A DNA stretch of 64,000 bases, taken from NCBI RefSeq assembly GCF_016026235.1, contig NZ_CP065613.1; one strand, given 5' to 3'. Positions 35,598 through 38,302 of this stretch are shown in pieces. Source of the stretch: Escherichia coli. Lineage in GTDB: Bacteria; Pseudomonadota; Gammaproteobacteria; Enterobacterales; Enterobacteriaceae. Below the pieces are notes generated by a model. It did no database searches. It was not told the origin of the DNA and saw only the letters and a program-made list of their open reading frames with translations. The position numbers and the translations under genes are program-made. The first letter of the stretch is position 1. Each line of letters begins with the position of its first letter.

Positions 35598-36572
35598 ATG
35601 GCACTGACTGACGCAAAAATCCGGGCTGCAAAGCCCACTGACAAGGCTTATAAACTCACTGACGGGGCTGGCATGTTCCTGCTGGTACATCCTAATGGCT
35701 CCCGTTACTGGCGTCTCCGTTATCGTATTCTGGGTAAGGAGAAGACTCTGGCACTTGGTGTGTATCCATAAGTTTCTCTCTCCGAAGCTCGTACAAAACG
35801 GGATGAGGCCCGAAAACTGATTTCGGAGGGGGTTGACCCTTGCGAACAGAAAAGAGCTAAAAAAGTAGTCCCTGATTTACAGCTCTCTTTTGAACATATT
35901 GCGCGACGCTGGCATGCCAGTAATAAACAATGGGCACAATCACACAGCGATAAAGTACTCAAAAGCCTCGAGACTCACGTTTTCCCCTTTATCGGCAACC
36001 GGGATATCACAACACTCAATACCCCGGATCTGCTTATCCCTGTTCGTGCTGCAGAAGCTAAACAAATTTATGAAATCGCCAGTCGTCTGCAGCAAAGAAT
36101 ATCTGCCGTAATGCGTTATGCCGTACAGTCTGGCATCATCAGATATAATCCTGCTCTGGATATGGCTGGCGCATTGACTACGGTAAAACGCCAGCATCGC
36201 CCCGCTCTTGATCTTTCTCGCCTGCCTGAACTTTTGTCGCGTATTGGCAGTTACAAAGGGCAACCTGTCACCCAGCTTGCCGTTATGCTGAATTTACTGG
36301 TTTTTATTCGTTCCAGTGAACTCAGATACGCCCGCTGGTCTGAAATTGATATTGACAATGCCATGTGGACTATTCCAGCCGAACGCGAACCCCTGCCAGG
36401 CGTAAAATTCTCACACCGGGGCTCCAAGATGCGAACACCACATCTTGTGCCACTCAGCAAACAGGCTGTAGCCATACTGACAGAACTACAGACATGGGCT
36501 GGTGAAAATGGTCTGATCTTTACGGGAGCACATGACCCGCGTAAACCAATCAGTGAAAATGTAATGAACGCA
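35598..36572 (+). pseudogene. P4-type tyrosine integrase, N-terminal part; premature TAA stop at codon 58 and truncated by IS insertion
   Basis: MALTDAKIRAAKPTDKAYKLTDGAGMFLLVHPNGSRYWRLRYRILGKEKTLALGVYP-stop, then in-frame integrase sequence (SLSEARTKRDEARKLISEGVDP...) continues to 36572. Confidence 0.8.
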
Positions 36573-38014
36573 TCCCACACAATTAAACACAGAGCAGTAT
36601 GATGGTTAAAAGGGTGAAACTGGCAGGTGTGGAGCCTCGCAGATTTCCGGCATCATAGTGCCCAATACGGGATGCATAAAGCTCCCTCAGACTGGAGACT
36701 CCACAAATGAAATATACACCGGTTGGCGTTGATATCGCAAAACATGTCATTCAGATTCACTTCATCAATGAGCACACAGGTGAAGTGGTTGATAAACAGT
36801 TGCGTAGACAGGATTTTCTGACGTTCTTCGGCAACCGTGAGCCATGCCTGATTGGTATGGAGGCCTGTGGAGGTTCTCAGCACTGGGCACGGGAACTGAC
36901 AAAACTTGGTCATAAAGTCCGGTTGTTGCAGGCCCGCTTCGTTAAGGCATTCATCATGGGCAATAAGAATGATGTGATGGATGCCCGGGCTATCTGGATG
37001 GCGGTTCAGCAGCCGGGTAAAGAAATCGCCGTAAAAACAGAAGAACAGCAGTCGGTACTGGTTCTGCACCGTACCCGCATGCAACTGGTGAAGTTCCGGA
37101 CCGCACAAATTAATGCCCTGCACGGGACGTTACTGGAGTTTGGTGAAACCATCCACAAAGGCCGGGCAGCGATGGAGCGGGAGTTCCCCGAAGCACTGGA
37201 ACGGATGAAAGAGAGACTGCCACCGTATCTCATTATGGTTCTGGAAAACCAGTACAACCGACTGAATGAGCTGGACTCACTGATAGAGGATATTGAAAAA
37301 CAGCTTACCAGCGTGGCGAGGCAGAATGAAACCTGTAAGCGGTTGCTGGATATTCCTGGCGTTGGACCACTTATTGCGACGGCAGCGGTGGCCACCATGG
37401 GGAAGCATCAGCGTTTAAATCGGGGCGAGAGTTCGCCGCATATGTTGGTCTGGTTCCAAAACAAACTGGCTCCGGAGGGAAAGTACGTCTGCTGGGGATA
37501 AGCAAACGTGGTGACACTTATCTCAGGACATTATTTATCCACGGTGCAAGAGCGGTGGCATTAGTAGCTAAAGAGCCTGGCCCGTGGATAACCGAACTGA
37601 AAAAACGTCGTCCAGCCAGTGTAGCAATCGTCGCCATGGCAAACAAGCTGGCACGAACAGTATGGGCGATAACCGCCCATGACCGTAAGTATGACAGGAA
37701 CCACGTCAGTATCAGACCATATTAATCGCTGATACCATTAAACAATGAACTCTTAACAAAAGGGTGAATGCTGAAAGGTTGCTATGGCGGCCAGAGTGAT
37801 GACAAAGACAGGTAAGACCGTGACTCACTAAACCTGAACAGTATTTTGGGCTTGAAGTCCGCCGTGAAAATAAGGGGTGAGTCGGCGAATTACATAGGGG
37901 CTCGCAGCGTTACGGCTGCAATAAAGCCGGATATAAAGCTGCAACCTACCCGTCATGTCAAAACAATGGATGCCTTGCAAACAGGATGCGTTCATATAAA
38001 ATACTGTAAATAAA
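36573..38014 (+). mobile_element. IS110-family insertion sequence (distinct from the speC copy) inserted in the integrase gene; boundaries +/-2 bp
   Basis: Joining 36572 to 38015 restores the integrase frame (...ISENVMNALRVMGYDTTQDV...); element about 1.44 kb with internal transposase gene. Confidence 0.7.
36707..37726 (+). pseudogene. IS110-family transposase with frameshift near 37400-37420
   Basis: ORF MKYTPVGVDIAKHVIQIHFINEHTGEV... ends at 37501; C-terminal continuation ...REFAAYVGLVPKQTGSGGKVRLLGISKRGDTYLRTLFIHGARAV...RPY is in another frame. Confidence 0.7.
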
Positions 38015-38302
38015 GCCCTGAGGGTGATGGGGTATGACACAACCCAGGATGTCTGTGGCCATGGATTCCGGGCGATGGCGTGCAGTGCATTGATTGAATC
38101 AGGTTTGTGGTCCCGCGATGCTGTGGAACGTCAGATGAGCCATCAGGAGCGTAATGGTGTACGTGCTGCGTATATCCATAAAGCAGAACATCTGGAAGAA
38201 CGTCGACTGATGCTACAGTGGTGGGCAGATTTTCTGGATGCGAACAGAGATAAGGGTATCAGCCCGTTTGAATATGCAAAGATTAACAATCCATTAAAAT
38301 AG
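38015..38302 (+). pseudogene. P4-type integrase C-terminal fragment (catalytic region)
   Basis: ...MGYDTTQDVCGHGFRAMACSALIESGLWSRDAVERQMSHQERNGVRAAYIHKAEHLEERRLMLQWWADFLD contains the H-x-x-R and catalytic Tyr region of tyrosine recombinases. Confidence 0.8.

What the first reader, a model, noticed from the sequence alone, without database searches (positions are those of the whole stretch)
35598..38302. pheV island integrase carries two independent inactivating lesions
The P4-type integrase has a GAA to TAA nonsense change at codon 58 and is separately split before its catalytic C-terminus by a 1.44-kb IS110-family element that itself has a frameshifted transposase. The island is therefore likely immobilised and anciently fixed, while the adjacent helicase-nuclease gene stays intact.
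Basis: seen in the sequence. Interest (0 to 1): 0.4.

Follow-up and report, generated by a model that had tools for sequence, protein, structure and literature searches.

The report
Island integrase killed by stop and ISEc11
The integrase gene next to the pheV tRNA is a dead gene, broken by one stop codon and by a known RNA-guided insertion sequence (ISEc11) sitting at its published target site; this is ordinary, recent gene decay rather than an ancient event.

Summary
All three reported lesions are present. Against an intact 420-aa pheV integrase allele, the window differs at one base of 1263: G→T at 35769, making codon 58 TAA. A 1442-bp element splits codon 321 from 322. It is ISEc11 (IS1111 group, IS110 family), 99.7% identical to copies with an intact transposase. 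Its transposase is frameshifted by one missing G (G4 at 37399-37402; G5 in four relatives).

The interpretation needs correcting in two places.
- The IS insertion is not random damage. The empty site reads GTGAAAATACTG, the published ISEc11 target, and the two seekRNA guide segments in the element's 3' non-coding region match it. The same site is occupied in a 4%-diverged pheU integrase of E. coli O121.
- Nothing supports "anciently fixed". The pseudogene carries no other change. A near-identical public assembly has the stop and the IS but an intact transposase. The frameshift is therefore very recent, or a homopolymer sequencing error.

The intact neighbouring gene is MkoC, the single-gene Mokosh type II anti-phage defence protein. 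The island runs past the window end through sigA, iha and iutA, so its far-end repeat cannot be checked here. This is known biology and of low interest.

The parts
35325..35400 (+). tRNA-Phe (anticodon GAA), pheV. Its 3' 23 nt (35378-35400) are the island's left attachment repeat.
   Evidence: ARAGORN; Rfam tRNA, 68.3 bits; yqgA lies upstream as at pheV in E. coli G1/2.
35598..36560 (+). Integrase 5' fragment, codons 1-321: arm-binding domain, central domain, and the first catalytic Arg (R238) and Lys (K277). Codon 58 is TAA at 35769-35771.
   Evidence: Translation. The only difference from intact WP_001218834.1 is G→T at 35769. Pfam domains were found on the intact allele.
36561..38002 (+). 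ISEc11 (IS1111 group of the IS110 family), 1442 bp here against 1443 bp intact. By the Siddiquee 2024 convention the coordinates are 36557-37998. Subterminal inverted repeats: ATGAACGCATCC at 36564-36575 and GGATGCGTTCAT at 37984-37995.
   Evidence: 99.7% identity to copies annotated by NCBI's PGAP pipeline as ISEc11. Ends and flanks compared. Published length of 1443 bp in PMC11187229.
36707..37725 (+). ISEc11 transposase gene (339 aa when intact), frameshifted by loss of one G in the run at 37399-37402. The first frame ends at 37501 after 264 aa.
   Evidence: ORFs. G4 in the window against G5 in L001, L004, L006 and L007. After repair the protein differs from the ISfinder TnpEc11 sequence (printed in the paper's supplement) only by V83I. 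Pfam DEDD_Tnp_IS110 and Transposase_20 hit the intact copy.
37812..37900 (+). Predicted seekRNA region in the 3' non-coding part of ISEc11. Guide T, (A)CAGTATTTT at 37838-37847, is complementary to the top strand of the target. Guide B, GTGAAAATA at 37864-37872, is complementary to the bottom strand. They flank a small hairpin inside an internal loop.
   Evidence: Folds. Both matches together appeared in 0 of 2000 shuffles. The order, T 5' of B with overlapping target matches, is as described in PMC11187229. The exact RNA ends were not mapped here.
38003..38302 (+). Integrase 3' fragment, codons 322-420 plus stop, holding H341-x-x-R344, H368 and the nucleophile Y378.
   Evidence: Colinear with the intact allele. 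Residues were assigned by motif.
38754..42266 (+). mkoC, the single-gene Mokosh type II anti-phage defence gene (SF1 helicase plus PLD nuclease). It is intact.
   Evidence: PADLOC MkoC, E = 0, 1684.8 bits, residues 1-1168 against profile positions 1-1135 of 1136. Pfam AAA_11, AAA_12 and PLDc_2. An identical protein is on at least 24 contigs.

Best explanation
The gene is the P4-type tyrosine integrase of a large pheV genomic island that carries mkoC, sigA, iha and the aerobactin genes. It has been inactivated recently by two unrelated events.

1. A G→T transversion turns codon 58 (GAA) into TAA and cuts the protein inside its arm-binding domain.
2. ISEc11 inserted between codons 321 and 322. 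ISEc11 finds its target through a short RNA (seekRNA) made from its 3' non-coding region. That RNA pairs with both strands of GTGAAAATACTG, and the integrase carries this 12-mer where it encodes S-E-N-T-V. The element therefore landed at its cognate site, in its fixed orientation and with no target duplication. This separates the first catalytic Arg and Lys from the His-x-x-Arg, His and Tyr residues.

A third and latest change removes one G from a G5 run in the ISEc11 transposase, unless that is a homopolymer sequencing error.

Consequences (inferred, not shown): this locus cannot make integrase, so the island can excise only if a paralogous integrase acts in trans. The ISEc11 copy cannot move itself. 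It keeps intact ends, flanking target halves and seekRNA, so a transposase from another copy could mobilise it.
For: - One-base difference from intact alleles.
- TAA present in independent assemblies.
- IS identity to ISEc11.
- Published target GTGAAAATACTG, seekRNA mechanism, lack of target duplication, and mobilisation in trans: PMC11187229.
- The empty site in L002, L003 and L005 reads CAGTGAAAATACTGTAAAT.
- Guide segments of 10 nt and 9 nt in the non-coding region; both together in 0 of 2000 shuffles; folds.
- Other ISEc11 copies, in IS66 tnpB and in the rluC-rne spacer, have flanks GTGAAAAT | (A)AA(T/A)ACTGT in the same orientation.
- The same codon boundary is occupied in the pheU integrase of E. 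coli O121. There the integrase differs at 50 of 1263 nt, but the IS differs by only 4 substitutions and 1 indel.
- G5 in four relatives; L006 is identical to the window over 11.5 kb apart from that base.
Against: - The order of the stop codon and the IS insertion is unresolved. Among the assemblies recovered, every copy of this allele with the IS has TAA and every copy without it has GAA.
- The G4 run may be an assembly error. Other homopolymer length differences occur among the related assemblies: A3 against A4 at the right junction in L004 and L011.
- No experiment here shows loss of excision or of transposition.
- The seekRNA ends were taken from a fold and a published description, not mapped.
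- The far end of the island is outside the window.
Confidence: 0.9

Rival explanations
1. One reading: the lesions are old, and the island has long been fixed and immobile.
For: Three lesions have accumulated in one 2.7-kb stretch. The island also contains many IS remnants.
Against: - No substitution other than the stop codon over 1263 nt, compared with intact alleles in several E. coli strains.
- The IS is 99.7% identical to copies with an intact transposase.
- A relative identical over 11.5 kb still has an intact transposase.
- Only 7 public contigs carry the exact junction product.
Confidence: 0.05
2. The transposase frameshift is a sequencing or assembly artefact in a homopolymer, and the ISEc11 copy is in fact intact.
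For: - The change is G5→G4 in a homopolymer.
- All four related copies have G5.
- No gene with the frameshifted product is on record.
- Other homopolymer length differences exist among the assemblies.
Against: A review citing Prosseda 2006 says Shigella virulence plasmids carry only defective ISEc11 copies, so defective copies do occur in this group (PMC5723341). The window's reads cannot be inspected.
Confidence: 0.25
3. The pheV and pheU integrase::ISEc11 alleles descend from one insertion that spread by recombination between paralogous islands, so they are not independent targeted insertions.
For: pheU and pheV islands of this family share mkoC, sigA, iha and iuc content and can recombine. 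A chimeric tnpB|ISEc11|integrase junction (L024) shows that recombination through ISEc11 does happen.
Against: - The integrase flanks differ at 4% right up to both junctions, while the IS differs at 0.3%.
- Each allele is paired with its own IS variant: A in the window against G in L001 at window position 36591.
- Target specificity has been shown experimentally (PMC11187229).
Confidence: 0.07
4. The stop codon is a sequencing error.
For: It is a single-base change.
Against: The same TAA is in GCA_900449985.1 and GCA_031665325.1, and, in a different integrase allele, in GCA_964055595.1.
Confidence: 0.02

Closest known systems
ISEc11 (IS1111 group, IS110 family; Prosseda et al. 2006; Siddiquee et al. 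2024, PMC11187229)
   Same: - 99.7% nucleotide identity to annotated ISEc11 copies.
- 12-bp subterminal inverted repeats.
- Transposase equal to the ISfinder sequence apart from V83I.
- 3' non-coding region carrying the two target-matching segments.
- Inserted at GTGAAAATACTG in the fixed orientation with no duplication.
   Different: One G is missing in the transposase gene, giving a frameshift after G232. Activity was not tested.
IS621 and its bridge RNA (IS110 group)
   Same: It works the same way: a DEDD recombinase guided by an RNA from the element's non-coding end that base-pairs with both target strands. This comparison rests on my own knowledge of Durrant et al. 2024; that paper was not read here.
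   Different: In ISEc11 the guide RNA is encoded 3' of the transposase gene, the element has subterminal repeats, and the order of the strand matches is reversed relative to IS110-type elements (PMC11187229 abstract).
P4-type (CP4-like) tyrosine integrases of pheV and pheU islands, for example WP_001218834.1 of E. coli G1/2
   Same: - 419 of 420 codons are identical.
- Arm-DNA-bind_3, Phage_int_M and Phage_integrase domains.
- The gene lies 198 bp downstream of tRNA-Phe.
- The island has the same cargo order: mkoC, sigA, iha, iutA.
   Different: E58* and the ISEc11 insertion make it a pseudogene.
Mokosh type II defence (MkoC)
   Same: Full-length match to the PADLOC MkoC profile. The helicase and PLD nuclease domains are in one protein.
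   Different: None seen. Anti-phage activity was not tested.

Membership tests
ISEc11 / IS1111 group of the IS110 family | DEDD (RuvC-like) transposase with a Transposase_20 C-terminal domain | tested here: met
   Pfam PF01548 and PF02371 hit the intact copy in L001. The window copy is the same sequence apart from V83I and the 1-base deletion.
ISEc11 / IS1111 group of the IS110 family | Subterminal inverted repeats with short terminal extensions, and no target-site duplication | tested here: met
   ATGAACGCATCC at 36564-36575 and GGATGCGTTCAT at 37984-37995. The extensions are 7 bp and 3 bp under the published convention. Removing the 1442 bp restores the empty site exactly.
ISEc11 / IS1111 group of the IS110 family | [quoted passage not shown] | tested here: met
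   A non-coding stretch of about 258 nt lies between the transposase stop codon and the right subterminal repeat. ACAGTATTTT (37838-37847) and GTGAAAATA (37864-37872) match the target; both together occurred in 0 of 2000 shuffles. The RNA itself was not observed.
ISEc11 / IS1111 group of the IS110 family | Insertion at the published target GTGAAAATACTG | tested here: met
   The empty site in L002, L003 and L005 contains the 12-mer at the insertion point. The target is taken from PMC11187229.
ISEc11 / IS1111 group of the IS110 family | Transposition competence | tested here: not met
   The transposase reading frame is broken after G232. This is a sequence-level result only and is subject to the homopolymer-error caveat.
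P4-type tyrosine integrase of a tRNA-linked genomic island | Arm-binding, central and catalytic domains with the R-K-H-R-H-Y residues | tested here: met
   Three Pfam domains on the intact allele. R238, K277, H341, R344, H368 and Y378 were located by motif; there is no structural confirmation.
P4-type tyrosine integrase of a tRNA-linked genomic island | An intact open reading frame able to give an active enzyme | tested here: not met
   TAA at codon 58 and an IS between codons 321 and 322. The longest ORF is 163 aa.
pheV genomic island bounded by direct repeats | A copy of the tRNA 3' end at the far end of the island | tested here: inconclusive
   No second copy in the window, and the island runs to base 64000. 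In relative E. coli G1/2 the island is about 74.5 kb and ends next to yghD with a repeat matching 22 of 23 nt.
Mokosh type II (MkoC) | A single protein combining an SF1 helicase and a PLD nuclease, matching the MkoC profile over its full length | tested here: met
   PADLOC PDLC03924, E = 0, profile positions 1-1135 of 1136. Pfam AAA_11, AAA_12 and PLDc_2.
Mokosh type II (MkoC) | Protection against phage | not testable with these tools
   This needs phage plaque assays.

The most novel reading that the evidence does not exclude
The ISEc11 seekRNA target coincides with a conserved stretch of pheU/pheV P4-type integrase genes, as well as with a site in IS66 tnpB. ISEc11 would then act as a recurrent, programmed knock-out of island integrases. 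It would lock virulence and defence islands into enteroinvasive E. coli and Shigella-type genomes and seed rearrangements between its copies, as in the chimeric L024. Evidence here: two integrase alleles occupied at the same base, and one chimera. Whether this happens often enough, or is selected, to shape island stability was not tested.
Probability: 0.2. Interest if true: 0.4.

Novelty: already known. Interest (0 to 1): 0.15.

Why it matters
- It gives a fully worked natural example of an RNA-guided IS1111-type element at its cognate site. The guide, both target halves and the empty site can all be read from sequence.
- It corrects the dating: these lesions mark recent decay typical of IS-rich enteroinvasive E. 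coli and Shigella-like genomes, not ancient domestication.
- For annotation, the fragments should be labelled as one integrase pseudogene interrupted by ISEc11, and the neighbouring gene as MkoC.
- It opens no new biological question.

Tried and rejected
- Rfam scan of 35000-39000 at a permissive threshold found only the tRNA. No curated family covers the seekRNA.
- Prosseda 2006 (PMC1483014) is not held, so its account of the target and of defective copies comes second hand.
- The ISEc11 source record used by Siddiquee et al. (CP053751.1) is not in the E. coli collection, and the paper's supplements do not give its flanks. I could not tell whether their cloned copy is an integrase copy.
- An exact look-up of the frameshifted 264-aa product found nothing, so the frameshift could not be confirmed in any other assembly.
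- The 57-aa look-up was mostly uninformative. Many hits are genes cut off by contig ends at the same position, not real stop codons.
- A scan of species-representative genomes for the ISEc11 left end found nothing.
- The PDB sequence search matched only arm-binding and central domains, so catalytic residues rest on motifs.
- A literature search for the island by name gave one unrelated paper.
- The source organism was not fixed. The junction protein is deposited as E. coli (STM06011.1). The window is not among 5426 complete RefSeq E. coli genomes. The gene order matches one listed for Shigella sonnei (PMC12795559).
- I considered and rejected a programmed frameshift in the transposase, because relatives have one continuous ORF.

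Full report
**What is at the coordinates.** A tRNA-Phe (GAA) gene lies at 35325-35400. It sits downstream of a 235-aa DUF554 gene, the same arrangement as yqgA-pheV in E. coli G1/2. An integrase reading frame starts at 35598 and translates cleanly except for one TAA at 35769-35771, codon 58. At 36560 the integrase sequence stops and resumes at 38003. The 1442 bp in between carry an IS110-family transposase gene.

**Comparison with intact alleles.** I aligned the window with an intact pheV integrase from E. coli G1/2 (locus L002, WP_001218834.1, 420 aa).
- Outside the insertion the two differ at one base in about 1.66 kb: G→T at 35769.
- Over the 1263-nt gene the window differs by 1 nt from L002 and L005 and by 0 nt from L006. 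At protein level the only change is E58*.
- The intact allele has Arm-DNA-bind_3, Phage_int_M and Phage_integrase domains.
- By motif, R238 and K277 lie before the insertion, and H341-x-x-R344, H368 and Y378 after it. No solved catalytic domain was close enough to confirm this.
- No other frame holds an integrase ORF longer than 163 aa.
- The TAA is in assemblies GCA_900449985.1 and GCA_031665325.1, so it is not a read error.

**The inserted element.** NCBI's PGAP annotation pipeline labels the matching element in E. coli O121 and other strains "IS110-like element ISEc11 family transposase", at 99.7% identity.
- The intact element is 1443 bp in L001 and L006, the published length (PMC11187229).
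- The window copy has 12-bp subterminal inverted repeats at 36564-36575 and 37984-37995.
- One G is missing from a G5 run, leaving G4 at 37399-37402. The frame shifts after G232 and stops at 37501. L001, L004, L006 and L007 all have G5.
- After repair, the protein equals the ISfinder TnpEc11 sequence printed in the paper's supplement, apart from V83I.

**Why the element is there.** Siddiquee et al. 2024 (PMC11187229) report three things:
- ISEc11 recognises GTGAAAATACTG.
- It inserts in one orientation without a duplication.
- A seekRNA from the 3' non-coding region carries one segment complementary to the top strand and, 3' of it, one complementary to the bottom strand, with overlapping target matches.

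The sequence here fits that account.
- The empty integrase site in L002, L003 and L005 reads CAGTGAAAATACTGTAAAT, with the insertion point inside the 12-mer.
- In the window's 3' non-coding region, ACAGTATTTT (37838-37847) is antisense to the target and GTGAAAATA (37864-37872) is sense. Both matches together occurred in 0 of 2000 shuffles.
- In predicted folds the two segments lie on either side of a small hairpin within an internal loop.
- ISEc11 copies at other loci, in IS66 tnpB and in the rluC-rne spacer, have flanks GTGAAAAT | (A)AA(T/A)ACTGT in the same orientation.
- This part of ISEc11 is identical in the window and in the L001 copy, whose transposase gene is intact.

**A second, independent hit on the same site.** In E. 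coli O121 strain 201805972, ISEc11 sits at the same codon boundary of the integrase next to pheU. That integrase differs from the window's at 50 of 1263 nt, while the two IS copies differ by 4 substitutions and 1 indel. A second junction protein in public data (P0003) carries the O121-type substitutions. I read this as independent targeted insertion; spread by recombination is less likely but not excluded. In E. coli 08-00022 an ISEc11 copy has IS66 tnpB on its left and the integrase 3' fragment on its right. That chimera implies recombination between two copies.

**Age of the lesions.**
- The pseudogene carries no change other than the stop codon.
- Locus L006 (GCA_900449985.1) is identical to the window over 11.5 kb except for the single G of the transposase frameshift.
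- Only 7 public contigs carry the exact integrase-IS junction product.

These facts point to recent events, with the frameshift the latest. The frameshift could also be a homopolymer error: related assemblies differ in another homopolymer at the right junction, A3 against A4, and the frameshifted product is not on record. The order of the stop codon and the insertion cannot be resolved. Among the assemblies recovered, every copy of this allele with the IS has TAA and every copy without it has GAA.

**The neighbour and the island.**
- The 1170-aa ORF at 38754-42266 matches the PADLOC MkoC profile end to end (E = 0). It has SF1 helicase and PLD domains, so it is the single-gene Mokosh type II defence protein.
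- Downstream lie IS remnants, sigA (44737-48594), an IS66 element, iha (56372-58462, minus strand) and iutA (61880-63979, minus strand).
- The island therefore runs off the window, and no second copy of the pheV 3' end is present.
- In E. coli G1/2 the same island family, with an intact integrase, is about 74.5 kb. It ends next to yghD with TTCGATTCCGAGTCCGGCACCA, which matches 22 of 23 nt.

**Consequences (inferred).**
- This locus cannot make integrase. Excision would need a paralogous integrase acting in trans, and none can be assessed from the window.
- The ISEc11 copy cannot move itself if the frameshift is real. Its ends, flanking target halves and seekRNA region are intact. The published experiments show that transposase and seekRNA work in trans, so another copy could mobilise it.

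**Source.**
- The junction protein is deposited as E. coli (STM06011.1).
- The window is not among 5426 complete RefSeq E. coli genomes; the best IS-containing hits are 97.9% identical.
- It carries ISSso6 and ISEc11.
- The gene order nupG, IS110-type element, speC, yqgH, yqgA, tRNA-Phe, ISEc11, helicase, sigA is also listed for Shigella sonnei (PMC12795559).
- An enteroinvasive E. coli or Shigella-like lineage is likely but not proven.

**Verdict.** It is wrong on age, and it misses that one lesion is a programmed insertion at a published target. This is known biology and of low interest.

Noticed in passing
window 30147-32239 and 51749-53271: An ISSso6 element (IS110 family) is inserted between nupG and speC and cuts off the 3' end of speC (668-aa ORF against 711 aa in relatives). 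It consists of one full copy (30147-31671) followed directly by a repeat of its last 572 bp (31668-32239). A second full copy lies inside the island.
   Followed up: partly
L024 (E. coli 08-00022, NZ_CP013662.1) 3001-4443: An ISEc11 copy has an IS66 tnpB fragment on its left flank and the integrase 3' fragment on its right. The chimera implies recombination between two ISEc11 copies.
   Followed up: partly
L012 (GCA_964055595.1) 4001-5266: The same TAA at codon 58 occurs without any IS in an integrase allele that differs at 54 of 1263 nt and heads a different island (TPR protein, sulfatase). It could be a recurrent mutation or gene conversion; this is unexplained.
   Followed up: partly
window 37975-38002: A sigma-70-like pair, TTGCAA, 16 nt, TAAAAT, spans the ISEc11 right end and the target. 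It points outward into the integrase 3' fragment and resembles the published circle-junction promoter. It is a consensus match only.
   Followed up: no
window 54780-54791: The only site in the window within one mismatch of the ISEc11 target (GGGAAAATACTG) lies inside an IS66-family transposase gene and is unoccupied.
   Followed up: no
L025/L026 (E. coli G1/2, NZ_CP060083.1): The relative with the intact integrase carries the same island family extended to about 74.5 kb: a sialic-acid gene cluster, aerobactin genes, an Ag43-like autotransporter and the CbtA/CbeA toxin-antitoxin module. It ends beside yghD with an imperfect repeat matching 22 of 23 nt.
   Followed up: yes
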